A stretch of DNA of 32,000 nucleotides from an uncultured Erysipelotrichaceae bacterium (lineage in GTDB: Bacteria; Bacillota_I; Bacilli_A; Erysipelotrichales; Erysipelotrichaceae): NCBI GenBank assembly GCA_942492995.1, contig OW818653.1:270001-302000 (forward strand). Reading direction: 5' to 3'. Both the position numbers and the translations under genes were made by a program. The notes beneath the pieces are model-generated. The model had not been told where the DNA came from and did not search any database. It saw nothing but the letters and a program-made list of their open reading frames with translations. Below, piece by piece: positions 11,292 through 31,697 of this stretch. Numbering within the stretch: position 1 is the first letter of the stretch; each line of letters begins with the position of its first letter.

Positions 11292-11332
11292 TCATTAACT
11301 ACGGTTAATTGACATATAAGAAAGGAGGAAAA

Positions 11333-12388: not shown

Positions 12389-12409
12389 TCAAGTAAGAAA
12401 GGAGAAGAT

Positions 12410-15976: not shown

Positions 15977-16750
15977 ATGGGTAAACAAAGAAGAAAACCG
16001 GCTGAAGGTGGAAGTAACGAATGGTTGAACACCTATGCAGATATGGTCACATTATTACTATGTTTCTTCATCCTGTTATTCACAATGTCTTCAATTGATG
16101 CGGAGAAATGGAAAACACTTATTCGTGCTTTCCAGGACCCATCTGAATTAGAAGAAATTGTTGATCAAAATGAAAATCCATCTGTAGAGAGCAGTGGGGA
16201 AGAAGTTGACATCGAGGATTTAAGCTTTCTTAAGGATCATATTGAACAATTAATCGATCAAAGTGTATTCTCAGCTGATGTCCAACTCTTAGGTAATGAG
16301 TCGATTGTATTTCTTCGTCTAAGCAACAATCTTCTGTTCTCAGGAGATAGCGCAGTACTTAGACAAAATACAATTGAATTTCTCGATTTAGTTGGAGATG
16401 CGCTAAAAGAATATGAAGAAGATATTATGTTTGTTCGTATTAATGGGCATACCGCAACCGTTGATGAACCAAGAAATGTTTCAGATCGAATTCTATCGAC
16501 AGAAAGAGCGAATGCCGTGCTTATGTATTTAGAAGATGTTAAAGGAATTGCGCCAAATAAACTTATCGCGATGGGGTATGGAAAGAACTATCCGATTGAT
16601 ACAAATGATACAGAAGAAGGTCGTTCTAAGAATCGAAGAGTAGAAATTCTAGTCATGGGTAAAAGTTTAGATGAAAATGCGAATTCAGAAGTATACCAAA
16701 TCTTAAGTGGAGAATTTGACGTAGATTTATACAATCAGTTTAATGATTAA
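15977..16750 (+). CDS. motB: Flagellar stator protein MotB (OmpA-like C-terminal domain)
   Basis: WLNTYADMVTLLLCFFILLF plug/TM with the conserved Asp. C-terminal peptidoglycan-binding motif NRRVEI. Confidence 0.92.
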   Translation: MGKQRRKPAEGGSNEWLNTYADMVTLLLCFFILLFTMSSIDAEKWKTLIRAFQDPSELEEIVDQNENPSVESSGEEVDIEDLSFLKDHIEQLIDQSVFSADVQLLGNESIVFLRLSNNLLFSGDSAVLRQNTIEFLDLVGDALKEYEEDIMFVRINGHTATVDEPRNVSDRILSTERANAVLMYLEDVKGIAPNKLIAMGYGKNYPIDTNDTEEGRSKNRRVEILVMGKSLDENANSEVYQILSGEFDVDLYNQFND

Positions 16751-16760
16751 AGGACGGGCT

Positions 16761-17522
16761 ATGGACATAATAAATAATATCTCAAATATGATTTCCTTAA
16801 GTATTGCGAAATCTCAATCAATTCAACATTGGGCAAATCGTATTATGGAAGTCATGTATTTAAAACATAAATCAATGATAATCATCGATAAAATCGAGAT
16901 TTTTGATTCGAAAGATTCAAATGAGGCAGATAAAGTTTATTATGCCATAGCTCAAATAGATTTAAACCAAAACCTTATGTTAGGTCTAAATAAGGATTTC
17001 GTACAACACTTTATACTTGATGATATAGAAAAGAATTGGGATGAATTTGATTACTCAATTGCGAATTCACACTTGAATGAACTGATTTCACATCTACAAA
17101 TGCGACCACATTATCAATTTAAACAAGTAGATGATATTGTAACAATCAATCAAGAAAAGTTAGTCATCTTAAAATTCAGTTATAACGTTAATCAAAAACC
17201 AATGTTTATTAGTTTAACCATGACACTAGATTTATTGGAATCCTATCTACATCGATATCCAGATCCACGTTCTAAGAATCTCGATGTGATGATGGATGTA
17301 CCTATCACTGTTCGTGTTGAGTTAGGTAGTATACAACGTAAAGTTAAGGAGATTATGGAATTTAGCCAAGGTACTCTATTAGAACTTGATCAAACCATAA
17401 ATTCCTCATGCAAAATAATTGTAAATAACCACACGATTGCACATGGAGATGTTGTGGAAGTAAATGGTAATTTCGGTGTTATGATGACAAAAATTGACGA
17501 TAAAGTCGATTTTATGAAGTGA
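16761..17522 (+). CDS. FliN/SpoA-domain switch-complex protein with an unassigned N-terminal domain
   Basis: The C-terminal ~75 aa (VPITVRVELGSIQRKVKEIMEFSQGTLLELDQ...HGDVVEVNGNFGVMMTKI) is a clear FliN/SpoA domain. I cannot assign the ~175 N-terminal residues to a family. The ATG at 16761 follows AAAGGA. Confidence 0.7.
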   Translation: MDIINNISNMISLSIAKSQSIQHWANRIMEVMYLKHKSMIIIDKIEIFDSKDSNEADKVYYAIAQIDLNQNLMLGLNKDFVQHFILDDIEKNWDEFDYSIANSHLNELISHLQMRPHYQFKQVDDIVTINQEKLVILKFSYNVNQKPMFISLTMTLDLLESYLHRYPDPRSKNLDVMMDVPITVRVELGSIQRKVKEIMEFSQGTLLELDQTINSSCKIIVNNHTIAHGDVVEVNGNFGVMMTKIDDKVDFMK

Positions 17523-19669: not shown

Positions 19670-20728
19670 TTGGCAACTGAGAAGAGTGAAAAAGCCACCC
19701 CCAAACGACGTAGTGATGAGCGTAAAAAAGGGAACATATTTCAAAGTAAGGATGCGGTATCGGTTGCGGTTCTTCTCGCTAGTTTCTATTCACTACAGTT
19801 TTATTTCCCAAGCATTATTTCTAATCTAATTAATTTAATTAATTCAATGTTTGATCAAATTGTTCAGATAAAATCATTAAGTATAGAATCCATCCAGTTA
19901 ATTTATATCCAAGTCACCATTGTATTTCTAGTTATCGCATTACCATTACTGTTCGTCTCAATGGGTACAAATATTATTGCGGTAGGTGCACAGACACGAT
20001 TTCTCTATACGATGTCTTCAATTAAGTTTAAGTTTGATCGACTTGATTTACTTAAAGGCATACAGAAATTATTTAGTTTAAGATCACTCGTCGATTTGTT
20101 TAAATCAATCTTAAAAATCTTAATTCTTGCGGCAATCGTTTATTCAACGTTAGAACCAAGAATGAACTCACTAATTGGACTATTCGATATGGAGTTCATG
20201 CAAGTACTTGTATTCTTGGGACAAACAATCATGAGTGTAGTGACAAGTGTTGGAATGTTCTTTATCTTCTTAGCATTAGCTGATTATGCCTATCAATGGT
20301 ATGAGTACGAAAAGAATATTCGTATGAGTAAACAAGATATTAAAGAGGAATATCGCCAAATGGAAGGTGATCCTCAGATTAAGAACAAGATTAAAGAACG
20401 TCAACGTTTAATGTCACAGAGACGTATGATGCAAAATGTTCCTAAAGCAGATGTTATTATACGAAATCCAACGCATTATGCGATTGCGGTTCAATATGAA
20501 ATGGGTAAACAGAGAGCGCCTATTATACTTGCGAAAGGGATGGATAGCTTAGCATTAAAAATCATTGAAGTTGCGGAAAAACACAATATTCCGAGTATCG
20601 AGAATAAACCACTCGCAAGAGGCTTATATGAAGCAGTTGAGATTGATCAAGAGATTCCAGAAAAATATTATCATGCGGTCGCTGAAGTCTTAGCGTTTGT
20701 CTATCAATTGAAGAAAGGAAAGAAGTAA
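19670..20728 (+). CDS. flhB: Flagellar export switch protein FlhB
   Basis: N-terminal EKSEKATPKRRSDERKKGNIFQSKD, four TM segments, NPTH autocleavage site (IIRNPTHYAIAV). TTG start 7 nt after AGAGGTG. Confidence 0.95.
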   Translation: MATEKSEKATPKRRSDERKKGNIFQSKDAVSVAVLLASFYSLQFYFPSIISNLINLINSMFDQIVQIKSLSIESIQLIYIQVTIVFLVIALPLLFVSMGTNIIAVGAQTRFLYTMSSIKFKFDRLDLLKGIQKLFSLRSLVDLFKSILKILILAAIVYSTLEPRMNSLIGLFDMEFMQVLVFLGQTIMSVVTSVGMFFIFLALADYAYQWYEYEKNIRMSKQDIKEEYRQMEGDPQIKNKIKERQRLMSQRRMMQNVPKADVIIRNPTHYAIAVQYEMGKQRAPIILAKGMDSLALKIIEVAEKHNIPSIENKPLARGLYEAVEIDQEIPEKYYHAVAEVLAFVYQLKKGKK

Positions 20729-20729
20729 T

Positions 20730-22781
20730 ATGCAAAAATATCTTAAAGGTACAAGTTCACTATTAATCGTATTAATCGTATTACTTATCATTATTCCTTT
20801 ACCTTCTTGGTTATTAGATATGATGTTTATCCTAAACTTAGCAATTTCATTTATTATTTTACTTACTTCTATGAATATTACAGAATCGCTACAATTTAGT
20901 TTATTTCCTGCAATACTTCTTATTACCACATTATTTAGACTCGCATTAAATATCTCATCAACGCGTCTTATTCTTCTTGAGAATGGATATGCAGGGGAGG
21001 TTGTTAAAACATTTGGCGACTTCGTTATTCGTGGGAATCCATTTGTAGGTTTGGTTATATTTCTAATTATTGTTGTGGTTCAATTTATCGTTATTTCAAA
21101 GGGGAGTGAGCGTGTTTCTGAAGTTAGTGCACGTTTTACTCTAGACGCAATGCCAGGTAAACAAATGGCAATTGATGCGGATTTATCATCCGGTTTAATT
21201 GATGAGGAAACTGCACGTGAACGACGTAAAAAAATACAACGTGAAGCAGATTTCTTTGGCGCAATGGATGGGGCAAGTAAGTTTGTCAAAGGGGATGCGA
21301 TTGTATCGATTATCGTAACCTTCATCAATCTTATCGGTGGATTAATCATCGGATTTACGACCAATGTAGGTGGATTTCAAGAAATCATAAACATTTATTC
21401 AACCGCAACGGTTGGGGATGGTCTTATCTCACAGTTCCCAGCTTTATTAATATCTGTCGCAACCGGTATGATTGTGACGCGAAGTGCATCTGAAGCGAAT
21501 ATTAGTACAGAATTAGTAAAACAATTTACGAGTCAACCGCGTGTACTCATTATGTCTGGTGGAATCATACTAGGACTTATCTTTATTCCTGGATTTCCTA
21601 AACTACAAATAATAGTGATGGGATTAATGTTAATCGGACTAGGTGTTACACTAGAGCGAAATGAAAATCGACTAGCGACTGCACTCGATAATAATCTAAA
21701 CATTAGTGAAGAAATTACGTCTGAAACGAGCTACTATCGCAATATTGATCATATCTATGGATTACTAAATGTAGAGACAATAGAAATGGAATTTGGTTAT
21801 AGCTTGATTCCATTGATTGATGAAAATAGTGGTGGAGTATTTATTGATCGAATTATCATGTTCAGAAAAAAATATGCGTTAGAAATGGGACTTGTTGTAC
21901 CAAGTGTAAAGCTAAAAGATAGTTCAAGTCTTAATCCCAATGAATATACGATAAAACTTAAAGGCGAAGAAATCGCACGTGGTGATGTCCTTGTCGATCA
22001 TTTACTAGCCATCGCGGCAAATGAAGTTAAAACAGAGATTGATGGAATCGAAACGATTGAACCCGCATTTGGATTAAGCGCAAAATGGATAACTGAAAAG
22101 AATCGCATTAAAGCAGAGATTGCTGGTTACACATTAATTGATCCAACCAGTGTTATCGTGACACATTTAAGTGAAGTGATTAAGAAACATGTAGATGAAT
22201 TATTAACACGTCAAGAACTACATCATATTCTTGATAATCTCAAGAAATCGAATGAAACACTTGTAAATGATTTAGTCCCAAATGTTGTATCAATTCAAAC
22301 ACTTCAAAAAGTATTGTGTAATCTCTTGAAGGAACAAGTCTCAATCCGTGATTTAGAAAGTATTTTAGAAACACTCGGTGATTATGCACCATCCATACGT
22401 GATATTGATGTATTAAGTGAATATGTAAGACAATCCTTAAAACGAACAATTACATCTAAGTACATCGAAAATCGACAACTTAAAGTTATAACGCTGGACG
22501 TAAAAATAGAAAATATGATCATGGAAAGTGTTAAGAAAGTAGATAATGGTTCTTACTTAGCCTTAGATCCTAACTCTATACAAAATATTATTCAGAGTAC
22601 GACCAAAGAAATTGACCGTGTAAAGGATTTAGTTCCATATTCTATCGTATTAACATCTCCAATCGTTCGAGTTTACTATAAAAAATTAATCGATCAGTTT
22701 GTCCCAAATATCGTCGTTTTATCCTTCAATGAGATTGATACGAATGTGCAAATTCAAGCACTCGCAAATATTGCCTTATGA
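20730..22781 (+). CDS. flhA: Flagellar export gate protein FlhA
   Basis: 683 aa, with FHIPEP-type motifs (ARFTLDAMPGKQMAIDADL, GAMDGASKFVKGDAI). Confidence 0.96.
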   Translation: MQKYLKGTSSLLIVLIVLLIIIPLPSWLLDMMFILNLAISFIILLTSMNITESLQFSLFPAILLITTLFRLALNISSTRLILLENGYAGEVVKTFGDFVIRGNPFVGLVIFLIIVVVQFIVISKGSERVSEVSARFTLDAMPGKQMAIDADLSSGLIDEETARERRKKIQREADFFGAMDGASKFVKGDAIVSIIVTFINLIGGLIIGFTTNVGGFQEIINIYSTATVGDGLISQFPALLISVATGMIVTRSASEANISTELVKQFTSQPRVLIMSGGIILGLIFIPGFPKLQIIVMGLMLIGLGVTLERNENRLATALDNNLNISEEITSETSYYRNIDHIYGLLNVETIEMEFGYSLIPLIDENSGGVFIDRIIMFRKKYALEMGLVVPSVKLKDSSSLNPNEYTIKLKGEEIARGDVLVDHLLAIAANEVKTEIDGIETIEPAFGLSAKWITEKNRIKAEIAGYTLIDPTSVIVTHLSEVIKKHVDELLTRQELHHILDNLKKSNETLVNDLVPNVVSIQTLQKVLCNLLKEQVSIRDLESILETLGDYAPSIRDIDVLSEYVRQSLKRTITSKYIENRQLKVITLDVKIENMIMESVKKVDNGSYLALDPNSIQNIIQSTTKEIDRVKDLVPYSIVLTSPIVRVYYKKLIDQFVPNIVVLSFNEIDTNVQIQALANIAL

Positions 22782-23509
22782 TCGAACTAGAAATAAAGAA
22801 TTATCAGATTACCAGAGATATTAATCATCGTAATGATTTATTAGAACAGACTTTACCTATCATAAAAAAAGTAGCCAAACAAACACGTAATTTGTATATG
22901 AATCACATGGAGTTTGATGATGTTGTATCAATTGGAATTCTCGCAATGATTGAATGTATTGAACAATACGATGAATCTAAAGGCTTGAGTTTTGAAGCCT
23001 ATGCATACACAAAAGTGAAATATCGATTAATCGATGAGCTGGGTATGAATGGGTTTATCCCAAGACGTATACGTCAAGAAGCTAAACACATAAACAATGC
23101 GTATGATGAATTGGCGAATCAACTTATGCGCGAACCAAGTGATTTAGAATTAGCTGAGTTTATGCAAATTGATTTAAGTGAAATTAGTAAGAATCATCAG
23201 GAAATGGCTTGGTCACAATTATTAAGTTTTGAAGAGATTAATGAAAATTATGGAGATAGAGATCTAATTGATCATAAGAATCTTAATCCAGAACAGTTAT
23301 TCTTCAAAAAAGAAATGGTTAATGAAATCACTGAAGCGTTAAAGTTGTTAAGTGAAAGAGAACAAATACTAATCAGTTTATATTATTACGAAAATTGTCG
23401 ATTAAAAGAAATTGGTGAAATCTTTGAAGTTACTGAAGCTAGAGCAAGTCAAATGCATGCTCAAGCGATAAAGAAACTAAAAGATATTCTAAAGGAGAAA
23501 ACCATATGA
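22778..23509 (+). CDS. fliA: Flagellar sigma factor FliA/SigD (sigma-28)
   Basis: 243 aa, with sigma-70 regions 2, 3 and 4 (region 4 HTH LKEIGEIFEVTEARASQMHAQAIKKL). ATGA overlap with the flhA stop. Confidence 0.9.
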   Translation: MIELEIKNYQITRDINHRNDLLEQTLPIIKKVAKQTRNLYMNHMEFDDVVSIGILAMIECIEQYDESKGLSFEAYAYTKVKYRLIDELGMNGFIPRRIRQEAKHINNAYDELANQLMREPSDLELAEFMQIDLSEISKNHQEMAWSQLLSFEEINENYGDRDLIDHKNLNPEQLFFKKEMVNEITEALKLLSEREQILISLYYYENCRLKEIGEIFEVTEARASQMHAQAIKKLKDILKEKTI

Positions 23510-24987: not shown

Positions 24988-25920
24988 ATGAATCATACCT
25001 ATCATGAAACGGGTGAGACTATACGCAAATATGATTTTAGATCGCCTAAGAAGTTCGGTAAGGAACAATTACGTACAATCGAAGATTTACATGAAACATT
25101 TGTACGCAATTTATCGTCTTATCTAAGTGCTTTAACACGACTGTATTGCGAAGTTCAAATTACCCATATCGAGAAACAACGTTACTACGAATACATTAAT
25201 ACAGCTCAAGAACTAGCGGTTTGTGCGAATTTTGATATTACACCATTGGATGAAACGATTGATGAGATAAGTATGCTAGTGACGATTAATCCGGATATCG
25301 GATACTTTCTAATCGATAAATTACTGGGTGGAACTGGTAATGAAACACAAATTGAACGTGATTTTACTGAAATTGAATGTGCTTTATTAGAAAATATATT
25401 TGGGAAACTAACACGTCAAATTGAGATGAGTTGGATGAAACAACTAGAAATAGAAGCTCGTATGAAGAGTTTAGAAACGAATCCAAGAGTCATACAATTA
25501 ATGATGCCAGAAGAGATTGTATTGGTTGTGGAATGTAAAGTAGTACTTGGAGAATTAAATAGTAGTTTAAAACTATTGTTACCTTCTGTATTATTCGAAA
25601 CACTCATGGAAAAATTCACTCCGAAATTTATACGTAATACAAAACGACATGATGAAAGTAAAGAAGAAATCCAAAAGAATGCGATCTTAAATTCATTAAA
25701 AGGTGCAGAAGTTGAACTGAAAGTTGTATTAGATGAAATCGAAATTGATTTACACGATATCTTACAACTTGAAGTAAACGATATTATTCCACTATCAAAA
25801 CGATTTGATTCAAATGTGACAGTGAATGTGGATGATAATCCATGGTTTGAGGCTAAATTAGGTGAGACTAAACAACGTAAAGCAGTTAAAATTGAACGAT
25901 TAATTGAGAAGGAGAAATAA
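24988..25920 (+). CDS. fliM: Flagellar motor switch protein FliM (lacks the usual N-terminal CheY-P docking peptide)
   Basis: 310 aa. It starts about 10 aa before the conserved KYDFRSPKKFGKEQLR motif, has the GGTG motif in the middle domain, and ends in a SpoA-like domain. Confidence 0.88.
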   Translation: MNHTYHETGETIRKYDFRSPKKFGKEQLRTIEDLHETFVRNLSSYLSALTRLYCEVQITHIEKQRYYEYINTAQELAVCANFDITPLDETIDEISMLVTINPDIGYFLIDKLLGGTGNETQIERDFTEIECALLENIFGKLTRQIEMSWMKQLEIEARMKSLETNPRVIQLMMPEEIVLVVECKVVLGELNSSLKLLLPSVLFETLMEKFTPKFIRNTKRHDESKEEIQKNAILNSLKGAEVELKVVLDEIEIDLHDILQLEVNDIIPLSKRFDSNVTVNVDDNPWFEAKLGETKQRKAVKIERLIEKEK

Positions 25921-25921
25921 T

Positions 25922-26854
25922 ATGTCAATGAACTCAGAACAAGAGAAAATCAATAATATTAAAGACAGTGTCCAACACGCATTAATAGAAGGTATTCGTA
26001 ATATTCATAGTCTTTTTGATTCATCCTTCGAATGTACAGATGTACAAATCGATAGTAAATTTCCTGCAGAATTAGCCCTTCAAATTCAAAAAGATGCGAT
26101 TATGATTCAAACAACATTTAGCTCAGATTATTCTGAATCAAGTTTAATGTTAGTTGATTTAGATAGTACAAAATACCTTATAAAACAATTAATGAATCAT
26201 GATGATGAAGAAATCGTATTGGATGAATTTGGATTAAGCGCATTTAGTGAAATTACAACATTGTTTTATCAAGGATTCACCCAACATATCAGTCAATTCT
26301 TAGGGAAAACGATTAAAAATGATCGATCAAAAGTAATCCAAATTGATCATAAAACGCAAGGCATTTCACCATTTAATGCTAAAGTTCTTGCGGTACGTTT
26401 CAACTTAAAACAAAATGATCAATATATTCCAATGCAGTTATATTTCGATTTCGCAAGTTTTACAGGACTCGTTGAAAATTTAAGCGATAAGAAATCAAAC
26501 TTTGAGACGAAATCTAATAAACAAGATGAAATTCAAGTAAAAGAAGTTCGTGTCCCAAAATATACAAATATGAATGAAAATGTGAGTGCTAATCCATCTA
26601 AGAATTTAGATCTAATCATGAATGTTCCGCTTAATGTGTCAATTGAGATAGGAAAGACGAAACGCAAAATTAAAGATATTATGAGTTTTGCGTCAGGTTA
26701 TGTCCTTGAACTTGAGAAACAATTAGGTGCACCAGTTGATATTGTTGTGAATGGACAATTGATCGCACGAGGTGATGTCGTTGTGATTGATGAGAATTTT
26801 GCGATTAGAATTACTGAAATAATTAGTACTACAAGCTTATTACCAAATGACTAA
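25922..26854 (+). CDS. fliY: Flagellar motor switch protein FliY (CheC-like region plus FliN/SpoA C-terminal domain)
   Basis: C-terminal MNVPLNVSIEIGKTKRKIKDIMSFASGYVLELEK...ARGDVVVIDENFAIRITEI. The middle region has CheC-like repeats (LSAFSEITTLF). The ATG at 25922 follows GGAGAA. Confidence 0.85.
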   Translation: MSMNSEQEKINNIKDSVQHALIEGIRNIHSLFDSSFECTDVQIDSKFPAELALQIQKDAIMIQTTFSSDYSESSLMLVDLDSTKYLIKQLMNHDDEEIVLDEFGLSAFSEITTLFYQGFTQHISQFLGKTIKNDRSKVIQIDHKTQGISPFNAKVLAVRFNLKQNDQYIPMQLYFDFASFTGLVENLSDKKSNFETKSNKQDEIQVKEVRVPKYTNMNENVSANPSKNLDLIMNVPLNVSIEIGKTKRKIKDIMSFASGYVLELEKQLGAPVDIVVNGQLIARGDVVVIDENFAIRITEIISTTSLLPND

Positions 26855-26876
26855 CTCCTTTATAGGAGTTTTTTTT
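26853..26876 (+). terminator. Rho-independent terminator ending the large flagellar operon
   Basis: AACTCCT-TTAT-AGGAGTT followed by TTTTTT. Confidence 0.8.
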
Positions 26877-26896
26877 AAAATAATTAACTTTTTACT

Positions 26897-26924
26897 TAAG
26901 TTTTTAATCCCTTGTACAGATGTA
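26897..26924 (+). promoter_or_regulatory. Candidate sigma-28 promoter for flagellin (imperfect)
   Basis: TAAG, 16-nt spacer, CAGATGTA. This is weaker than the two near-consensus sigma-28 promoters at 27800 and 31321. Confidence 0.35.
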
Positions 26925-26957
26925 TATTGTGAGAGTTAGAAATAACTCCATTCTCAA

Positions 26958-26990
26958 GCGAAAAGGATTTCGCAGAACATTCAAGGAGGA
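26958..26990 (+). promoter_or_regulatory. Flagellin mRNA leader with two CsrA-type GGA sites (hairpin-loop AGGA plus the SD)
   Basis: GCGAAA-AGGA-TTTCGC hairpin (26958-26973) presents AGGA in a 4-nt loop. A second GGA lies in the SD AAGGAGGA (26983-26990), about 20 nt downstream. Confidence 0.55.
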
Positions 26991-26995
26991 ATACA

Positions 26996-27766
26996 ATGAG
27001 AATACAACACAATATTATGGCGCTTAATGCGCACAGAAACTCAACGGTTAACCAAACCTCAGTTTCTAAAAACATGGAGAAACTATCTTCAGGTTACAGA
27101 ATTAATCGTGCAGGTGATGACGCAGCAGGTCTTTCAATTTCTGAAAAAATGCGTTCACAAATTCGTGGCCTTGATCAAGCTTCACGTAATGCGCAAGATG
27201 GCATTTCATTCATCCAAACAGCAGAAGGTGCATTAACTGAAGTATCAAGTATGTTAACTCGTGCAAAAGAACTACATGTTCAAAAAGCATCAGAAACGTA
27301 TAGTACAGAAGATATCGCAAACATTGATGCTGAATTAACTTCATTAGACGAAGAAATTACAAACATTTTAACTAATACTGAGTTTAATGGTGCAAATGTC
27401 TTCACATCTGCTGTATCTGTAGCTATCTCACATGATGCAACAGTAACATTGGATATTGCAGCAAGTACAGTTTCATCTTTATCGCTTGCAGGTGCAACTA
27501 CTGCAGGTGCTGTTGATGATCTAATTGATGATGTTAATACTCAACGAGCAGTTTATGGTTCTCAACAAAACCGTTTAGAACATACAATCAACAACTTAGG
27601 TACAACTTCTGAAAACCTAGTTGGCGCAGAATCCCGTATTCGTGATGTTGATATGGCTAAAGAAATGATGGAAATGACTAAGAATAACATCCTTGCACAA
27701 GCAGCTCAAGCAATGATCGCTCAAGCTAACCAACAACCACAAAACGTTTTACAACTATTACGTTAA
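26996..27766 (+). CDS. fliC: Flagellin (short, D0/D1-only type)
   Basis: MRIQHNIMALNAHRN...INRAGDDAAGLSISEKMRSQIRGL N-terminus and C-terminal AQAAQAMIAQANQQPQNVLQLLR. 256 aa. Confidence 0.95.
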   Translation: MRIQHNIMALNAHRNSTVNQTSVSKNMEKLSSGYRINRAGDDAAGLSISEKMRSQIRGLDQASRNAQDGISFIQTAEGALTEVSSMLTRAKELHVQKASETYSTEDIANIDAELTSLDEEITNILTNTEFNGANVFTSAVSVAISHDATVTLDIAASTVSSLSLAGATTAGAVDDLIDDVNTQRAVYGSQQNRLEHTINNLGTTSENLVGAESRIRDVDMAKEMMEMTKNNILAQAAQAMIAQANQQPQNVLQLLR

Positions 27767-27772
27767 TTGATT

Positions 27773-27799
27773 AGAACCACTGAAAAGTGGTTCTTTTCT
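27773..27799 (+). terminator. Rho-independent terminator of the flagellin gene
   Basis: AGAACCACT-GAAA-AGTGGTTCT followed by TTTCTT. Confidence 0.85.
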
Positions 27800-27826
27800 T
27801 AAGTTTTATTGAGAATAAACGATATA
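27800..27826 (+). promoter_or_regulatory. Near-consensus sigma-28 (FliA/SigD) promoter
   Basis: TAAG (27800-27803), exactly 15 nt, ACGATATA (27819-27826). Compare with the TAAA-N15-(G)CCGATAT consensus. Confidence 0.7.
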
Positions 27827-27855
27827 CTAGTAGAAGTCATTCGAAAAGAGAAATT

Positions 27856-29196
27856 ATGGCAGATTCATTAAAAATTAGTCCAACAATGATTAAACAACCT
27901 GCAGTATCAAGAAATCAACCTGATCCACAGGTTCCTTTTCAGATTAAAGATGTCACTAAAGTAAATAATCTAAATACTTCTAAACAAACTTCATCTCAGA
28001 ACCAAACATTATTAAACAGTGATGGACCTAAATTACTTCTTGATATCTTACGTGATCCAGAATCCACAACTCAATTTCTCCATAGTTTATATCTCTTACA
28101 AGAAGTTAATCAATTAATTCCGTTGGATAATTTGAGTTTAAATAGTGAGTTAGAATTGTTATTCCAATCGATATTTCTTAAATCAGATTCTCTTTTAACT
28201 GAATTATTAAATCAATCTAAACAAACAAGTGTATTTAAAGGTGAATTGTTTGATTGGATTAGAAACTTATTGGTTCAATATCCAATGAGTGAAAATAGTT
28301 TGATTCAATTATTGAAATCGATGAATCAAATAAAATCAAAACCACAGTATCGTGAAAGTTTATTAAACCAAGCTGAACATTTAGAACAAGAATTCATTAA
28401 TCCTAAACAGAATGAGAGTATTAAACAGTTTATTGATTCTCTACAAAATAATAGTGATCAATTGTCTAAACAATTAAAAGATATGATTCAAGTATTAGAG
28501 AAGAGTATTCTATATAATCCACAAACCCAAAAAAATCTTGGTATTATGCAGTACAATCTATCGAGATATATGATGGAAATAGATATAAATGATATTCTAG
28601 AATTATTTAAAGACGTATTAGCAGATGATTTCATACAATTTGAGATATTGGTTAAAGAATATATTAAACAACCGTATCAGAGTTTAAATACATCGAATAT
28701 GTTGGATAAGATAACGGAATTATTAGATAAACAGATAAAACATTCAAGTCAAATAGACATACCCTATAGAAAGTTAGAGAAGATAGTAATATCACTATTA
28801 TCTTCCCCATCAAATTTTGTGCCATTATTACACTTTATACTTCCTATGCAAGGCAATATACTACAAGCATATTCAGAAGTATGGGTAGATATAGAAGAAC
28901 CAAAGGTTAAATCTGATTCATCAATTCATGTATTATGTGCGATTGAAATAGAACAATTAGGGCACTTTGAAATCGAACTCTGGAATCGAAATAATTCCAT
29001 TAAAATAGATGTCTATTGTCCTGAATCACTCTTAGAACGATTCAAACCAATCATTTCGAAATTCTCAAAACATATATTAGATAGTACATACAATTTAGAT
29101 AATGTACATTTATTACCATTAACCCAAAAACGTTCATTAATGGATGTCTTTGAGCATTTAAGTCTAAAACAAAGTGGGTTAGATCAATATGCGTAA
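27856..29196 (+). CDS. Uncharacterised ~446-aa protein with a disordered polar N-terminus and a FliK-C-terminal-like (YlqG-like?) C-terminal region
   Basis: The ATG at 27856 lies downstream of the sigma-28 promoter, whereas the ORF-track start at 27787 lies in the terminator. The N-terminal ~70 aa are Q/N/S/T/P-rich. The C-terminal LLHFILPMQGNILQAYSEVWVD...IHVLCAIEIEQLGHFEIELWNRNNSIKIDVYCP loosely resembles the Flg_hook fold pattern. 8-nt overlap with the next gene. Confidence 0.5.
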   Translation: MADSLKISPTMIKQPAVSRNQPDPQVPFQIKDVTKVNNLNTSKQTSSQNQTLLNSDGPKLLLDILRDPESTTQFLHSLYLLQEVNQLIPLDNLSLNSELELLFQSIFLKSDSLLTELLNQSKQTSVFKGELFDWIRNLLVQYPMSENSLIQLLKSMNQIKSKPQYRESLLNQAEHLEQEFINPKQNESIKQFIDSLQNNSDQLSKQLKDMIQVLEKSILYNPQTQKNLGIMQYNLSRYMMEIDINDILELFKDVLADDFIQFEILVKEYIKQPYQSLNTSNMLDKITELLDKQIKHSSQIDIPYRKLEKIVISLLSSPSNFVPLLHFILPMQGNILQAYSEVWVDIEEPKVKSDSSIHVLCAIEIEQLGHFEIELWNRNNSIKIDVYCPESLLERFKPIISKFSKHILDSTYNLDNVHLLPLTQKRSLMDVFEHLSLKQSGLDQYA

Positions 29197-29458
29197 GAAA
29201 AATAAAGCTGTTGCCTTAAGCTATAACCTCACTAAAAATAGAGCTCCAATTGTTGTCGCAAGTGGCTATGGAGAGATCGCAAATCGGATAATTCATATCG
29301 GAGAAAAACAAGGAATACCAATCTATCAAGATGAACAAAGTGCTAGTATTTTATGCATGTTGAAGTTGGGACAAGAGATTCCAATCGAACTTTATGAATT
29401 AATCGCAAACTTATATGTAGAATTACTGAATCATGCCGAAATTGTGGTGGAAAAGTAA
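29189..29458 (+). CDS. FlhB C-terminal-domain paralog (YlqH / FlhX-like, EscU/YscU/FlhB family fragment)
   Basis: 89 aa. It aligns by eye with FlhB residues just after the NPTH site (KAVALSY..APIVVASGYGEIANRII.IGEKQGIPIYQDEQSASIL...EIPIELYELIANLY versus HYAIAVQY..APIILAKGMDSLALKIIEVAEKHNIPSIENKPLARGLY..EIPEKYYHAVAEVL). Confidence 0.8.
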   Translation: MRKKNKAVALSYNLTKNRAPIVVASGYGEIANRIIHIGEKQGIPIYQDEQSASILCMLKLGQEIPIELYELIANLYVELLNHAEIVVEK

Positions 29459-29534
29459 TAAAAAGCATCTTATAAGGTATAAAAAAATGCTCAAAAAGTG
29501 TAAAATTCTCTTATTGAATTCAGTGAGGTTACAC

Positions 29535-30305
29535 ATGAGTAGAGTGTTTACGATTACAAATCAAAAAGGTGGAGTTGGTAAAACAACAACGACAATAAAT
29601 CTTGCGTCATCTTTGAAATATAGAGGGTTTAAAGTATTAGTTATCGATATGGATCCACAAGGTAATTTATCCTTTTGTGTAAATGCAGATACTGTTTTAA
29701 GCGCAACAATCTATGAAGTCTTAAAAGGTGAAGTTAAGATGCAATACGCTATACAAAGAACAGGTATTGTGGATATCGTGGCAGCGAATATCTTACTTAG
29801 TGGAATAGAACTTGAATATACAACTGCGGGTCGTGAATTCTTACTTAAACAAGCAATTGCAGTTGTGAAGGATCATTATGATGTTGTATTAATTGATACG
29901 CCTCCTGGATTAGGAATCCTTACGATAAATGCGATGACCGCAAGTGATGGTATTGTCATACCGATGGTTGCGGATATCTTTAGCTTACAAGGTATCACTC
30001 AACTTTATGAGACAGTATTACAAGTTCGTAAATTCTCAAATCCTGATTTAGTAATTGAAGGTGTGTTGTTAAACAAATACAATTCAAGAATTCATTTAAA
30101 TAAAGAAGTAAAAGGCGCTGCGGAACTTGTCTTGAATGATTTGAAAGTTAAATTATTTAAAACGACCATTCGTTCTAGTATCACTGTCGCAGAAGCACAA
30201 TCGACACAAAAAGATCTTGTGACAGGATATAAACAAAATGGTGCTGCACTTGATTACATTAAATTCTCTAAAGAATTGATAAAAGGGGAAAAAGATGTCA
30301 AATAA
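29535..30305 (+). CDS. Orphan ParA/Soj-family P-loop ATPase
   Basis: Deviant Walker A ITNQKGGVGKTTTTINL, VLVIDMDPQGN, Walker B VVLIDTPPG. The ATG at 29535 follows GTGAGG. No parB-like gene is adjacent. Confidence 0.85.
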   Translation: MSRVFTITNQKGGVGKTTTTINLASSLKYRGFKVLVIDMDPQGNLSFCVNADTVLSATIYEVLKGEVKMQYAIQRTGIVDIVAANILLSGIELEYTTAGREFLLKQAIAVVKDHYDVVLIDTPPGLGILTINAMTASDGIVIPMVADIFSLQGITQLYETVLQVRKFSNPDLVIEGVLLNKYNSRIHLNKEVKGAAELVLNDLKVKLFKTTIRSSITVAEAQSTQKDLVTGYKQNGAALDYIKFSKELIKGEKDVK

Positions 30306-30684
30306 TCGCGCAATTGATAAAGAAGCAATGTATAAAAAAATCATGCCAAGTGCTGCTCAAAAAGAACGAGTTAGTGAAATGAGTGAAGAAACTCCAAATG
30401 TCACTAATACACCTAAAGTATCTTATTTTCAACCTAAGATACTCGTTAATTTGGCAGAACTAGCCGTAAAAGAACGTTTGAATGAAGCGCTGGATCGGTT
30501 TAAGTGTTGTGAATGTGATCGATGTATAAAGGATATACTCGCAATTGCGGTGAATACGTTACCACCAAAATATATTGTAAGAAGCGAACAAGATATCGCT
30601 ATTGAACTAAGAAAATATGAAGGTGATGTCGTTGGGGCACTCGTAAATGCAGTAATAACAGTAAAGAATAATCCAAGACACTAG
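30295..30684 (+). CDS. ComFB-family protein (late competence development protein ComFB domain)
   Basis: LVNLAELAVKERLNEALDRFKCCECDRCIKDILAIAVNTLPPKYI matches the ComFB Cys-cluster core. 11-nt overlap with the parA-like gene; RBS GGGGA. Confidence 0.75.
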   Translation: MSNNRAIDKEAMYKKIMPSAAQKERVSEMSEETPNVTNTPKVSYFQPKILVNLAELAVKERLNEALDRFKCCECDRCIKDILAIAVNTLPPKYIVRSEQDIAIELRKYEGDVVGALVNAVITVKNNPRH

Positions 30685-30695
30685 GGGGAAATGTT

Positions 30696-31310
30696 GTGTT
30701 GATTGATGAAGAATATCGATTTGCGAATTGTGAGCTTAGAACAATTAATAACGATTTATTAACAAAAGGTAAAATTATAAAAATTGGGAGTGATTTTCTA
30801 GAGATAAGTAATGAACTTGGTTCTACAAGTTTAAATCGATATGAAAAACGCATTAAAGTTATTATCAATCATGCATACTTGGAATCTAAAGTAATTGAAG
30901 GCGATTTATATATTCCGACGATGGAGTTCTTTCGTGTAATTGATACGAAAACAGTCATGGAAAAGGAACAACGTAATTTCTTTAGAGTCAATGTGAATAT
31001 AGATGCAGTAGCCGGAGTTGGACCTCGAGGGGGAGGACCGATTAAAAAGTATCCAGTTATAATCAATGATCTTAGTTTAAATGGTGCATTAATGATTACG
31101 AATACAATCATTGCACAACGCGCAAAAATAGAATTAACATTCGAAATCGATAATAATGAACTCATTCTTGATGGACAAGTCGTACGTTGTCGATTGAATT
31201 CCGATAATATGTATTGTTATGGAGTACGCTTTATTGATATCGATAATGCGAATTCTAATCTAATATGCCAATATTTGTTTAAAAAACAAAAAGAAGTAAT
31301 AGAAATTTAA
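30696..31310 (+). CDS. PilZ-domain c-di-GMP receptor, MotI(DgrA/YpfA)/YcgR-like
   Basis: RxxxR (QRNFFRVNV) and DxSxxG (INDLSLNGAL) c-di-GMP-binding motifs in the C-terminal half, and a YcgR-N-like beta-rich N-terminal half. 204 aa. GTG start 6 nt after GGGGGA. Confidence 0.8.
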   Translation: MLIDEEYRFANCELRTINNDLLTKGKIIKIGSDFLEISNELGSTSLNRYEKRIKVIINHAYLESKVIEGDLYIPTMEFFRVIDTKTVMEKEQRNFFRVNVNIDAVAGVGPRGGGPIKKYPVIINDLSLNGALMITNTIIAQRAKIELTFEIDNNELILDGQVVRCRLNSDNMYCYGVRFIDIDNANSNLICQYLFKKQKEVIEI

Positions 31311-31320
31311 TAAAAGTACT

Positions 31321-31347
31321 TAAGTTCTTCAAAAATAGTTCGATATA
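31321..31347 (+). promoter_or_regulatory. Near-consensus sigma-28 promoter for flgM
   Basis: TAAG (31321-31324), exactly 15 nt, TCGATATA (31340-31347). Confidence 0.75.
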
Positions 31348-31370
31348 ACTATAGAAGAACTTTATTTTTT
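31322..31370 (+). terminator. Terminator-like hairpin (9-bp stem, 23-nt loop, T-tract) overlapping the flgM promoter
   Basis: AAGTTCTTC (31322-31330) pairs with GAAGAACTT (31354-31362), followed by TATTTTTT. The loop is unusually large, so efficiency is uncertain. Confidence 0.5.
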
Positions 31371-31385
31371 AAGAAAGGGGTACAT

Positions 31386-31697
31386 ATGATGAAAATTAAT
31401 CCAAATAAAATTAGTCAAATATACCAAACAAAACCAAACACAACACACACTTCAAAAGAATCAAATACTATTAGTAATGTTGATAAAATTGAAGTACGTA
31501 ATCACTCTAAACAGAGTATTAAAATAAAAGATATCAAAAATGATTTAACACAAGCAATTAATTCAACTCATTCACAGGAAAAAATCAACTTGTTAAAAGA
31601 ACAAATCAAAAATGGACAATATGAAGTTAAACATAAACACGTAGCAGAAGCTATTATTGCGTTTAGTGAAACTATGTTGGGAGATAAACATGATTGA
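31386..31697 (+). CDS. flgM: Anti-sigma-28 factor FlgM
   Basis: 103 aa with a polar N-terminus and the C-terminal KINLLKEQIKNGQYEVKHKHVAEAII motif typical of FlgM. Sigma-28 promoter upstream. Confidence 0.85.
   Translation: MMKINPNKISQIYQTKPNTTHTSKESNTISNVDKIEVRNHSKQSIKIKDIKNDLTQAINSTHSQEKINLLKEQIKNGQYEVKHKHVAEAIIAFSETMLGDKHD

What the first reader, a model, noticed from the sequence alone, without database searches (positions are those of the whole stretch)
27800..31370. Five-gene sigma-28-headed late operon joining a ruler/switch paralog pair to ParA, ComFB and PilZ
A near-consensus sigma-28 promoter (TAAG-N15-ACGATATA) starts directly after the flagellin terminator. I find no hairpin plus T-tract until 31322-31370. 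The five genes are tightly packed, with an 8-nt overlap, a 76-nt gap lacking a convincing promoter or terminator, an 11-nt overlap and an 11-nt gap. If this is one transcript, it co-expresses several proteins at the late stage of flagellar assembly: a FliK-C-like protein, a free FlhB-C-terminal domain, an orphan ParA ATPase, and two putative cyclic-dinucleotide receptors. I do not know of a described flagellar module with this composition. It is the best candidate in the window for an uncharacterised regulatory system acting on export-gate specificity and/or stator engagement.
Basis: partly seen in the sequence, partly recalled or inferred. Interest (0 to 1): 0.7.

Follow-up and report, generated by a model that had tools for sequence, protein, structure and literature searches.

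The report
Composite late flagellar control gene cluster
Five tightly packed genes between the flagellin gene and flgM are a conserved array of three separable flagellar control modules, and the pairing of a ParA ATPase with a ComFB c-di-GMP receptor among them does not appear in the searched literature.

Summary
All gene boundaries, overlaps and gaps are as stated. A sigma-28-type promoter (TTAAG-N16-CGATAT, 27799-27825) follows the flagellin terminator. The only terminator-like site downstream is the hairpin plus U-tract at 31322-31371.

The five families are linked in many Clostridia and Erysipelotrichales, but as three modules:
1. A Pfam-less protein with a T3S4-like C-terminal fold, followed by a free FlhB C-terminal fragment lacking NPTH (adjacent in 73/75 genomes). 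This parallels the FliA-dependent, uncharacterised fliK2-flhX operon of Pseudomonas putida.
2. ParA followed by ComFB, an obligate pair next to flgM (50/50 and 28/28 loci). Elsewhere it has its own sigma-A-type promoters. These ComFBs carry a conserved basic N-terminal peptide that ComFBs without ParA lack.
3. A YcgR/MotI-type PilZ protein with intact c-di-GMP motifs.

The exact five-gene order occurs only in Erysipelotrichales and two other MAGs. A conserved -10-like box in the 76-nt gap suggests an internal promoter. The closing hairpin also encloses the conserved sigma-28 promoter of flgM.

The components are known kinds. The ParA-ComFB pairing and the new FliK2-like family are new variants. 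Interest is moderate.

The parts
27773..27799 (+). Intrinsic terminator of the flagellin gene: a 9-bp stem, a 4-nt loop and a T-tract. The T-tract runs into the -35 element of the next promoter.
   Evidence: scan; -16 kcal/mol, z = -5.4, 0/200 shuffles fold as well.
27799..27827 (+). Sigma-28 (SigD/FliA)-type promoter: -35 TTAAG at 27799-27803, a 16-nt spacer, and -10 CGATAT at 27820-27825.
   Evidence: TTAAG and CGATA are invariant in four lineages with 58-100% g1 identity. The same motif precedes flgM and, in relatives, flagellin. A relaxed form is found upstream of g1 in 15/82 loci, against 0-4% for control gene families.
27856..29196 (+). g1: a 446-aa protein of a Pfam-less family. It has a conserved N-terminal peptide, a helical region, a length-variable linker, a T3S4-like beta-rich C-terminal domain (about residues 325-421) and a conserved C-terminal tail. 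It is FliK2-like in architecture.
   Evidence: no family hit. (47 homologues). (506 clusters at 50% identity; members of 424-985 aa with an insertion between the N and C parts). (AF2 models; pLDDT 75 for the C-terminal domain). (top PDB fold hit is 5cuk, the PscP substrate-switching domain: probability 1.0, TM 0.52-0.57). (no sequence similarity to FliK).
29189..29458 (+). g2: an 89-aa free FlhB C-terminal fragment (FlhX-like). It starts just after the position of the NPTH autocleavage site and lacks that site.
   Evidence: PF01312 positions 262-331/335. (best NCBIfam model is TIGR00789 flhB_rel, 84.6 bits, below its cutoff of 117). (aligns to chain B of the FlhB-C crystal structures). (37% identity to the window's FlhB residues 271-338; that FlhB has NPTH at 266-269; 0/87 small paralogues have NPTH). 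(adjacent to g1 in 73/75 genomes).
29498..29506 (+). Conserved -10-like box (GTG-TAAAAT) in the 76-nt g2-g3 spacer. It is a candidate internal promoter for g3-g5.
   Evidence: Equivalent boxes (TAAAAT, TAAAGT, TATTAT) occur at the same place in L003, L008 and L009. Separately transcribed ParA genes carry TGnTATAAT boxes 30-60 nt upstream. The -35 is weak and the box was not listed by the consensus scan.
29535..30305 (+). g3: a ParA/Soj-type deviant Walker A ATPase (KGGVGKT), 256 aa.
   Evidence: AAA_31, 175.7 bits. (best PDB relatives are ParA/Soj proteins, E 1e-43 to 1e-33; MinD is much weaker). (always directly upstream of this type of ComFB).
30295..30684 (+). g4: a ComFB-family protein, 129 aa. 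It has an N-terminal basic peptide (MSNNRAIDKEAMYKKIMPS), a short linker, and a ComFB domain with three Cys.
   Evidence: PF10719, 55 bits. (B. subtilis ComFB 4wai, E 1e-5). Residues equivalent to D33, A36, L37, N40, Y46 and V47 of BsComFB are kept, and K41 is Thr. The N-terminal peptide is present in 29/29 ParA-linked ComFBs and 0/12 unlinked ones.
30696..31310 (+). g5: a PilZ-domain protein of 204 aa with an extra N-terminal domain of about 90 aa. The RxxxR motif (RNFFR) and the DxSxxG motif (DLSLNG) are intact. It is of the YcgR/MotI type.
   Evidence: PF07238, 52 bits. (motifs). (the family profile's best PDB hit is the YcgR flagellar brake 5y6g, E 4e-5).
31322..31371 (+). Terminator-like hairpin: the 9-bp outer stem AAGTTCTTC/GAAGAACTT plus an inner stem, followed by TTTATTTTTT. 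It closes the array.
   Evidence: -13.4 kcal/mol, z = -2.35.. (100% of 72 cells paired in 8 lineages, one compensatory change and five wobble-preserving changes; slid controls pair 39-69%).
31320..31348 (+). Sigma-28-type promoter of flgM (TTAAG-N16-CGATATAA), embedded in that hairpin. Only transcripts arriving from upstream can form the stem.
   Evidence: conserved in at least 8 lineages.
31386..31697 (+). flgM (anti-sigma-28 factor). It is the first gene of the next unit, flgM-flgN-flgK-flgL.

Best explanation
The region is a composite late-flagellar transcription unit. Three evolutionarily separable modules have been joined head to tail between the flagellin gene and flgM in Erysipelotrichales.

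Transcription. It starts at a conserved sigma-28-type promoter and meets no terminator until the hairpin plus U-tract at 31322-31371. A conserved -10-like box in the g2-g3 spacer probably adds sigma-A-type transcription of g3-g5. The closing hairpin encloses the sigma-28 promoter of flgM. Read-through RNA can therefore fold and terminate, while RNA started at the flgM promoter cannot.

Module 1 (g1, g2). This is a counterpart of the fliK2-flhX pair: a protein with a T3S4-like switch domain plus a free, already 'cleaved' FlhB C-terminal fragment. I infer that g2 can dock on export gates that have ejected their own FlhB C-terminal fragment at the early-to-late switch. I infer that g1 binds g2 and controls that docking.

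Module 2 (g3, g4). This is a ParA-type ATPase with a ComFB c-di-GMP receptor. I infer that the conserved basic N-terminal peptide of ComFB is the ParA-contacting, ATPase-stimulating element, as in ParB-type partners. On this reading ParA governs where or when ComFB acts on motility.

Module 3 (g5). This is a YcgR/MotI-type PilZ protein that slows or disengages the motor when it binds c-di-GMP.

Shown: anatomy, conservation, linkage and domain identities. Inferred: all protein-protein interactions, ligand binding, and sigma-factor dependence.
For: Anatomy and signals:
- establish the gene layout, the promoter and the terminators.
- The promoter is conserved.
- The terminator hairpin is conserved, with compensatory change.

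Modularity:
- g1 is followed by the FlhB-C paralogue in 73/75 genomes.
- PilZ lies within 10 kb in 39/43 genomes and an EAL-HDOD gene in 30/43.
- ParA is followed by ComFB in 50/50 evaluable loci, and flgM lies within 2.5 kb in 28/28.
- ParA-ComFB is often divergent from flgM and on the opposite strand to g1-g2.
- Separately transcribed ParA genes have TGnTATAAT boxes and no sigma-28 motif.

Module 1:
- The T3S4 fold is the top hit for two independent models.
- g2 corresponds to the post-NPTH FlhB fragment.
- P. putida fliK2-flhX is FliA-dependent, and H. pylori FlhX partly replaces the FlhB C-terminal fragment.
- The FlhB C-terminal fragment keeps the gate in early mode and is ejected at the switch (PMC13344023).

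Module 2:
- The N-terminal peptide is present in 29/29 plus 62/62 ParA-linked ComFBs and in 0/12 unlinked ones.
- B. subtilis ComFB binds c-di-GMP and inhibits flagellar function independently of MotI (PMC12265714).

Module 3:
- The PilZ motifs are intact and the family profile's best hit is YcgR.
Against: - No transcript data exist. Sigma-28 dependence and the internal promoter are sequence predictions.
- The internal box has a weak -35 and a non-canonical TG position.
- g1 shows no sequence or profile similarity to FliK, and the fold match has a weak E-value (about 0.015).
- g2 scores below the curated cutoff of TIGR00789.
- One c-di-GMP-contacting position of ComFB (K/R41) is Thr here and varies across the family.
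- The closing hairpin is AU-rich, has a large interior, and was missed by the standard terminator scan.
- No interaction was tested.
Confidence: 0.55

Rival explanations
1. One reading: one indivisible five-gene sigma-28 operon encoding a single new regulatory system, in which all five proteins work together on the export gate and stator.
For: - The genes are tightly packed, with no internal terminator.
- The identical order and spacing are kept across Erysipelotrichales whose g1 identity falls to about 30%.
- All five families lie within 10 kb in 16/43 Clostridia genomes.
Against: - In most Clostridia the families are split over different strands and promoters.
- Many loci lack ParA or ComFB next to g1-g2.
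- ParA-ComFB tracks flgM, not g1-g2.
- A conserved -10-like box lies in the g2-g3 gap.
Confidence: 0.15
2. The neighbours only share a flagellar gene supercluster. The sigma-28 promoter serves essentially g1-g2, as in fliK2-flhX. ParA-ComFB-PilZ are expressed mainly from their own sigma-A promoter, independently of flagellar assembly stage.
For: - ParA upstream regions elsewhere carry sigma-A-type extended -10 boxes and never the sigma-28 motif (0/26).
- The internal box is conserved.
- There are two tightly coupled sub-blocks, g1-g2 and g3-g4-g5, separated by a spacer of 59-76 nt.
Against: - Nothing in the spacer resembles a terminator, so read-through from the sigma-28 promoter is expected.
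- The internal box is weak.
Confidence: 0.2
3. g1 is not a ruler or switch relative. It is an unrelated helical scaffold or chaperone that happens to partner the FlhB-C paralogue, and the T3S4 fold match is fortuitous.
For: - No Pfam, NCBIfam, PDB-sequence or profile-profile similarity to FliK.
- The Foldseek E-value is only about 0.015, over 67-71 columns.
Against: - The same T3S4 domain (PscP) is the single high-probability hit for two separate models, and FliK-C also appears with probability 0.6-0.8.
- The architecture mirrors FliK: a conserved N-terminus, a length-variable linker, a C-terminal domain and a tail.
- The obligate partner is the protein that T3S4 domains act on.
Confidence: 0.2
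4. The ParA is an ordinary chromosome or plasmid partition ATPase that lies here by chance.
For: Its closest solved relatives are ParA/Soj proteins.
Against: - No ParB-like gene is adjacent.
- It is followed by ComFB in 50/50 loci and lies beside flgM in 28/28 loci, across Erysipelotrichales, Lachnospiraceae and Oscillospiraceae.
Confidence: 0.03

Closest known systems
The fliK2-flhX operon of Pseudomonas putida, and FlhX (HP1575) of Helicobacter pylori
   Same: - A gene for a FliK-C-like protein is followed directly by a gene for a small free FlhB C-terminal homologue.
- Transcription comes from a FliA (sigma-28)-type promoter.
- The function is uncharacterised (bioRxiv 10.1101/2021.08.29.457346).
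   Different: - g1 does not match the Flg_hook/IPR021136 domain that defines FliK2.
- g1 belongs to a separate, Pfam-less family restricted to Clostridia and Erysipelotrichales in the hits seen here.
- Here the pair is fused to three further genes.
The FliK-FlhB (and PscP/YscP-SctU) ruler and substrate-specificity switch
   Same: - The C-terminal domain of g1 has a T3S4-like fold.
- g2 is homologous to the cleaved C-terminal fragment of FlhB.
- The g1 family varies in length at a linker, as rulers do.
   Different: - The bona fide fliK (11309-12388) and flhB (19670-20728, with NPTH) are present elsewhere in the window.
- g2 has no membrane domain and no NPTH.
- g1 has no sequence similarity to FliK.
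Bacillus subtilis ComFB and the ComFB/CdgR family of c-di-NMP receptors
   Same: - The PF10719 domain, the three Zn-binding Cys and most c-di-GMP-contacting residues are present.
- It lies next to flgM and late flagellar genes, as in B. subtilis.
- BsComFB inhibits flagellar function when bound to c-di-GMP (PMC12265714, PMC12448109).
   Different: - It is not in a comFA-comFC operon.
- It carries a conserved N-terminal basic peptide plus a linker.
- It is always preceded by a ParA gene. The main text of those papers does not mention such a pairing.
- The K/R41 equivalent is Thr.
YcgR (E. coli), MotI/DgrA (B. subtilis) and FlgZ (Pseudomonas) PilZ flagellar brake or clutch proteins
   Same: - It is a two-domain protein of about 200 aa with a C-terminal PilZ domain.
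- The RxxxR and DxSxxG motifs are intact.
- The best solved relative by profile is YcgR.
- It is encoded beside flgM/flgN, as FlgZ is in the flgAMNZ operon.
   Different: - There is no single-sequence PDB hit.
- The N-terminal domain matched no Pfam family, so it has not been shown to be a YcgR-N/PilZN domain.
- The target (MotA or the switch complex) is unknown.
ParA/MinD-type ATPases with partner proteins: Soj-Spo0J(ParB), FlhG/FleN with FleQ, and ParC-ParP
   Same: - It has the deviant Walker A ATPase motif.
- The constant downstream partner has a short basic N-terminal peptide. From my own knowledge, ParB-type partners use such a peptide to stimulate ParA.
- Also from my own knowledge, FleN-FleQ is a precedent for an ATPase of this superfamily working with a c-di-GMP receptor on flagellar genes.
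   Different: - The partner is a ComFB domain, not ParB, FleQ or ParP.
- By inspection of the sequence, g3 has no FlhG-type N-terminal activator motif and no C-terminal amphipathic helix.
- No interaction has been shown.

Membership tests
Sigma-28 (SigD/FliA)-dependent promoter | -35 TAAA and -10 (C)CGATAT, separated so that 16 nt lie between TAAA and CGATAT | tested here: met
   TTAAG-N16-CGATAT lies at 27799-27825. The -35 matches 3/4 and the -10 core 6/6. The spacing is the same as at the flgM promoter and the relatives' flagellin promoters.
Sigma-28 (SigD/FliA)-dependent promoter | Conservation at orthologous positions | tested here: met
   TTAAG and CGATA are invariant in the window, L003, L008 and L009. 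A relaxed motif is found in 15/82 g1 upstream regions, against 0-4% for control families.
Sigma-28 (SigD/FliA)-dependent promoter | Transcription requires FliA | not testable with these tools
   This needs RNA-seq or 5'-RACE in wild type versus a fliA mutant.
Single operon | Same strand, short gaps, no internal terminator | tested here: met
Single operon | No internal promoter | tested here: inconclusive
   A conserved GTG-TAAAAT box lies at 29498-29506. Its -35 is weak, and it was not reported by the consensus scan.
Intrinsic terminator (31322-31371) | Stable hairpin directly followed by a U-tract | tested here: met
   -13.4 kcal/mol with TTTATTTTTT. The stem is 100% paired in 8 lineages, with one compensatory change. 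Caveat: it is AU-rich with a large interior, and the strict scan missed it.
FliK / T3S4 domain (Pfam PF02120 Flg_hook) | Sequence match to the Flg_hook model or to FliK profiles | tested here: not met
   No hit for any of the 23 family members even at E = 10. hhalign against the local FliK family gives probability 0.06. BLASTP finds nothing.
FliK / T3S4 domain (Pfam PF02120 Flg_hook) | T3S4 fold of the C-terminal domain | tested here: inconclusive
FlhX / FlhB-related small protein (TIGR00789; PF01312 C-terminus) | Homology to the FlhB C-terminal fragment only, about 80-95 aa, no membrane part | tested here: met
   PF01312 scores 57.4 bits (cutoff 24.4) over profile positions 262-331/335. It has 37% identity to the window's own FlhB residues 271-338. 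It aligns to chain B of 3b1s and 3b0z.
FlhX / FlhB-related small protein (TIGR00789; PF01312 C-terminus) | Score above the curated TIGR00789 cutoff | tested here: not met
   84.6 bits against a cutoff of 117.35. It is still the best-scoring NCBIfam model.
ParA/Soj ATPase | Deviant Walker A KGGxGK[ST] and the AAA_31/CbiA fold | tested here: met
   KGGVGKT is present. AAA_31 scores 175.7 bits. The best PDB relatives are ParA/Soj.
ParA/Soj ATPase | Adjacent ParB-type partner gene | tested here: not met
   The downstream gene is ComFB in 50/50 loci. No ParB gene is in the window.
FlhG/FleN (MinD-type flagellar number regulator) | Encoded after flhF between flhA and fliA; N-terminal activator motif; C-terminal membrane-targeting helix | tested here: not met
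   fliA directly follows flhA in the window and in 19 related loci. g3 starts 10 residues before the Walker A motif and ends without an amphipathic helix, by inspection of the sequence. MinD hits are far weaker than ParA hits.
ComFB c-di-NMP receptor family (PF10719) | Domain match and the dimerisation and ligand-contact residues listed in PMC12448109 | tested here: met
   PF10719 scores 55 bits. Equivalents of C25, C27, C30, D33, A36, L37, N40, Y46 and V47 are kept. K/R41 is Thr.
ComFB c-di-NMP receptor family (PF10719) | Binds c-di-GMP or c-di-AMP | not testable with these tools
   This needs ITC, DRaCALA or a similar binding assay.
YcgR/MotI-type PilZ brake | PilZ domain with RxxxR and (D/N)xSxxG | tested here: met
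   PF07238 scores 52 bits. RNFFR and DLSLNG are present. 70/71 and 63/71 family members keep the two motifs respectively.
YcgR/MotI-type PilZ brake | N-terminal YcgR-N/PilZN domain and binding to MotA or the switch complex | not tested
   Only the PilZ half aligns to YcgR. There is no Pfam hit for residues 1-90.

The most novel reading that the evidence does not exclude
ParA and the N-peptide-bearing ComFB form a c-di-GMP-gated system built like a ParA/ParB pair. In these Firmicutes, whose flagellar loci have no flhF/flhG between flhA and fliA, this system positions, sequesters or counts a flagellar component or late-gene regulator. Alongside it, the FliK2-like/FlhX pair re-arms or locks export gates after the early-to-late switch. 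Together with the PilZ brake, this would be a dedicated post-assembly control layer for flagella that has not been described.
Probability: 0.2. Interest if true: 0.8.

Novelty: new variant of a known kind. Interest (0 to 1): 0.55.

Why it matters
- **The role of the free FlhB fragment.** The function of free FlhB C-terminal paralogues (FlhX) and their FliK2 partners is unknown. Recent work shows that ejection of the FlhB C-terminal fragment is the switch event itself (PMC13344023). A sigma-28-timed free copy with a T3S4-like partner is a direct handle on that question in Gram-positives.
- **The partner of ComFB.** ComFB was shown only in 2025 to be a c-di-GMP receptor that inhibits flagellar function by an unknown route. 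An obligate ParA partner and a conserved N-terminal peptide give a concrete, testable interaction.
- **Coverage of flagellar control.** The array places three candidate control points for the flagellum in one locus: the export gate, an ATPase-coupled receptor, and a motor brake. It occurs in gut-associated Clostridia and Erysipelotrichales, whose flagellar regulation has been little studied.

Tried and rejected
- **g1 annotation.** Pfam and NCBIfam scans of g1, and of all 23 aligned family members at E up to 10, gave nothing meaningful.
- **g1 against PDB sequences.** A profile of the g1 family gave only a chance hit to a designed repeat protein.
- **g1 against FliK.** hhalign of the g1 family against the organism's FliK family, and BLASTP of g1-C against FliK, showed no similarity.
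- **Promoter motif counts.** Counting TAAG-N16-CGATA in the window is not informative on its own: 17 matches against 9.1 expected with one mismatch, and exact matches also occur inside fliK/flgD and antisense in PilZ. I relied on orthologous conservation instead.
- **RNA families.** An Rfam scan of the whole window found no family, so there is no c-di-GMP riboswitch here.
- **PilZ against PDB.** The single sequence gave no hit. The family profile was needed.
- **Literature.** Searches for YlqH and YlqG gave nothing relevant. A search for ComFB with ParA found no paper on the pairing. No supplementary files of the ComFB paper are held.
- **Naming the organism.** The closest named records are Erysipelotrichaceae MAGs.
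- **Rejected readings.**
  - I rejected the NCBI label 'antitoxin' on some g1 homologues as unsupported.
  - I rejected the longer g3 ORF from 29433 and the in-frame ATG at about 29488, because relatives lack them and share a ribosome-binding site before 29535.

Full report
**Context.** The window carries one large flagellar locus of a low-G+C Firmicute. The closest named relatives are Erysipelotrichaceae MAGs.
- The genes run from flgB (5123) through fliE-K, flgD/E, motAB, fliOPQR, flhB, flhA, fliA, flgF/G, fliM and fliY to a terminator at 26853.
- Next come the flagellin gene (26996-27766) and its terminator, the five genes of the finding, and then flgM and flgN.
- The bona fide fliK (11309-12388, Flg_hook) and flhB (19670-20728, NPTH at 266-269) lie upstream. 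The two genes at the head of the finding are therefore extra copies, not the primary ruler and switch.

**Observation check.**
- The genes are g1 27856-29196, g2 29189-29458, g3 29535-30305, g4 30295-30684 and g5 30696-31310.
- The spacings are an 8-nt overlap, a 76-nt gap, an 11-nt overlap and an 11-nt gap.
- Independent gene calls on near-identical contigs give the same products.
- The flagellin terminator is strong (-16 kcal/mol, z = -5.4).
- TTAAG-N16-CGATATAC follows at 27799-27827.
- A relaxed terminator scan of my own over 26800-31420 finds only three sites on the + strand: after fliY, after flagellin, and at 31322-31371.
- The promoter motif is short and the window is AT-rich, so motif counts alone are not significant. 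However, TTAAG and CGATA are invariant at the orthologous position in four lineages of diverged sequence. The same motif and spacing precede flgM and, in relatives, flagellin.

**Identity of the five proteins.**
- g2 is a free FlhB C-terminal fragment. It matches PF01312 positions 262-331 of 335, has 37% identity to residues 271-338 of the window's own FlhB, and aligns to chain B of the FlhB-C crystal structures, which is the piece released by autocleavage. It lacks NPTH, as do 87 of 87 small paralogues in related loci. TIGR00789 (flhB_rel) is its best NCBIfam model but scores below the curated cutoff.
- g3 is a ParA/Soj-type ATPase with KGGVGKT.
- g4 is a ComFB-family protein. Aligned to B. 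subtilis ComFB, it keeps the three Zn-binding Cys and six of the seven mapped c-di-GMP-contact positions. The K/R41 position is Thr.
- g5 is a PilZ protein with RNFFR and DLSLNG motifs and an extra N-terminal domain of about 90 residues. A family profile finds YcgR as the best solved relative (E 4e-5).
- g1 has no Pfam or NCBIfam hit, and neither does any of 22 aligned homologues.
  - Its family has about 500 clusters at 50% identity. Lengths range from 424 to 985 aa because of an insertion between the conserved N-terminal and C-terminal parts.
  - Two AlphaFold models were made, one full length and one of residues 300-446 (pLDDT 75). Both give the PscP substrate-switching (T3S4) domain as the only high-probability PDB fold match: probability 1.0, E about 0.015, TM 0.52-0.57, rmsd 2.3 A. 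FliK-C appears further down the list.
  - Profile-profile and pairwise comparisons with the organism's own FliK are negative.
  - 'FliK-C-like' is therefore supported at the level of fold and architecture only.

**Comparative genomics.**
- Anchoring on g1 in one genome per species gave 239 matching genomes, of which the best 80 loci were kept and analysed. They are Oscillospiraceae (Anaerotruncus, Angelakisella, Marasmitruncus), Lachnospiraceae (Faecalicatena, Enterocloster) and Erysipelotrichales.
- I annotated the loci with profiles built from the window and first hits.
  - The FlhB-C paralogue directly follows g1 in 73 of 75 evaluable loci.
  - Among 43 loci with at least 9 kb downstream, PilZ is present in 39, an EAL-HDOD phosphodiesterase in 30, ComFB in 23, ParA plus ComFB in 17, and all five families in 16.
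- The exact order g1-g2-ParA-ComFB-PilZ-flgM is found in Erysipelotrichales of several divergence levels and in two other MAGs.
- Elsewhere the arrangement is modular.
  - PilZ usually follows g2 directly.
  - ParA-ComFB sits beside flgM-flgN-flgK-flgL, often divergently and on the opposite strand to g1-g2.
  - Some Oscillospiraceae have a different, ParA-less ComFB between g2 and PilZ.
- A second scan of metagenomes, anchored on this ComFB type, found ParA directly upstream on the same strand in 50 of 50 evaluable loci. It found flgM within 2.5 kb in 28 of 28.

**The ParA-ComFB pair.**
- All 29 distinct ParA-linked ComFBs from genomes, and all 62 from metagenomes, begin with a conserved basic peptide. 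The consensus is M-A-K-x-K-K-E-[IL]-D-K-[DE]-x-M-[YF]-x-K-I-M-P. A linker of very variable length follows, and then the ComFB domain.
- None of the 12 ComFBs not next to ParA has this peptide.
- From established knowledge of ParA systems, partner proteins such as ParB/Spo0J stimulate the ATPase through short basic N-terminal peptides. I therefore infer that this peptide is the ParA-contacting element.
- The full-text library has no paper that links ComFB with ParA. The main text of the ComFB family paper notes proximity to flagellar genes but no ParA.

**Transcription unit.**
- The array splits into two tightly coupled sub-blocks, g1-g2 and g3-g4-g5. A spacer of 59-76 nt separates them in all co-linear relatives.
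- The spacer has no terminator-like fold.
- It does hold a conserved box (GTG-TAAAAT at 29498-29506; TAAAGT or TATTAT in relatives) about 30 nt before the ParA start.
- Where ParA is transcribed on its own, its upstream region shows clear TGnTATAAT-type boxes and never the sigma-28 motif (0 of 26).
- The most economical reading is a complex operon. Sigma-28-driven transcription covers all five genes, and a weaker sigma-A-type start inherited from the ParA-ComFB module adds to g3-g5.

**The 3' end.**
- The hairpin at 31322-31362 plus its U-tract is conserved. In 8 lineages 100% of the stem cells are paired, with one compensatory and five wobble-preserving changes. Slid controls pair 39-69%.
- The 5' arm of the hairpin overlaps the -35 element of a conserved sigma-28-type promoter for flgM (TTAAG-N16-CGATAT at 31320-31346). 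The 3' arm lies downstream of the -10 element.
- RNA arriving from upstream can therefore form the terminator. RNA initiated at the flgM promoter contains only the 3' arm and cannot. This is an inference from the sequence.

**Comparison with what is known.**
- The g1-g2 pair parallels the fliK2-flhX operon of P. putida, which is FliA-dependent and uncharacterised. FlhX of H. pylori can partly replace the FlhB C-terminal fragment.
- A 2026 study shows that the cleaved FlhB C-terminal fragment holds the gate in early mode and is ejected by FliK at the switch, coincident with sigma-28 activation (PMC13344023). A sigma-28-timed, pre-'cleaved' paralogue with a T3S4-like partner is therefore well placed to act on switched gates. 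This step is my inference.
- ComFB of B. subtilis binds c-di-GMP and inhibits flagellar function independently of MotI (PMC12265714; PMC12448109).
- PilZ proteins of the YcgR/MotI/FlgZ type are classic motor brakes. FlgZ is likewise encoded with flgM and flgN in Pseudomonas.

**Verdict.**
- The cluster is a fusion of three modules rather than one new indivisible system. One module has a described, though unexplained, counterpart.
- The new elements are:
  1. the obligate ParA-ComFB pairing with its N-terminal peptide beside flgM;
  2. the Pfam-less FliK2-like family;
  3. the overlapping terminator and promoter before flgM.
- I rate it a new variant of known kinds, of moderate interest. All mechanisms remain to be tested.

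Noticed in passing
window 20730-23509; also L003, L008-L010, L013, L014, L027, L030, L035, L042, L049, L053, L065-L067, L070, L075, L082: fliA follows flhA directly, with a gap of -12 to +84 nt, in the window and in all 19 related loci that show both genes. No flhF or flhG (MinD-type) gene lies at the usual position. Whether these genes are absent from the genomes could not be checked.
   Followed up: partly
window 26895-26926: The flagellin promoter has the shared CTTAAGTT -35 element, but its -10 reads CAGATGT. Relatives have CGATAT or CGATGT at the same place. This may be a weakened or altered sigma-28 -10 element in this strain.
   Followed up: no
window 26958-26989: The flagellin 5' UTR has a conserved hairpin, GCGAAAAGGATTTCGC, that presents GGA in its loop. 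TTCAAGGAGG follows at the ribosome-binding site. This is the pattern of the two CsrA-binding sites known for B. subtilis hag. Relatives carry fliW-csrA a few genes downstream.
   Followed up: partly
L001, L005, L016, L018-L021, L023, L024, L032, L036 and others (Oscillospiraceae): A recurrent array of g1, the FlhB-C paralogue, PilZ, a roughly 700-aa FtsA/PilM-like protein and an EAL-HDOD phosphodiesterase lies divergent from cheA-cheW-cheR-cheB. The large FtsA-like protein is uncharacterised here.
   Followed up: no
g1 family: Family members range from 424 to 985 aa. The extra length is inserted between the conserved N-terminal part (profile positions 1 to about 290) and the C-terminal domain (about 255-467). 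Such length variation is expected of a molecular ruler.
   Followed up: partly
L006, L013, L014, L025, L029, L030, L035, L041, L043, L051, L058, L069, L073, L076, L081: A VanY-type D,D-carboxypeptidase gene often sits directly after the FlhB-C paralogue or after PilZ in Clostridia loci. This may be a peptidoglycan-remodelling link.
   Followed up: no
P0039, P0041: NCBI and UniRef label some g1 homologues (Marasmitruncus, Oscillospiraceae) as 'antitoxin'. Nothing in sequence, fold or context supports that name.
   Followed up: partly
window 16743-17522 and 25904-26854: There are two FliN-domain proteins besides FliM. One is a 259-aa protein directly after motB, and the other is the 316-aa FliY-like protein at the end of the main operon.
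   Followed up: no
L015, L028, L031, L034, L039, L044, L055, L061, L071, L072, L078: A second, shorter ComFB type (90-132 aa) lies between the FlhB-C paralogue and PilZ in some Oscillospiraceae. It has no N-terminal peptide and a different Cys pattern, and no ParA is adjacent.
   Followed up: partly
window 30714-30738 (- strand) and 12394-12418 (+ strand): Two further exact TAAG-N16-CGATA matches exist. One is antisense inside the PilZ gene and the other lies across the fliK/flgD junction. Both are probably chance matches.
   Followed up: no
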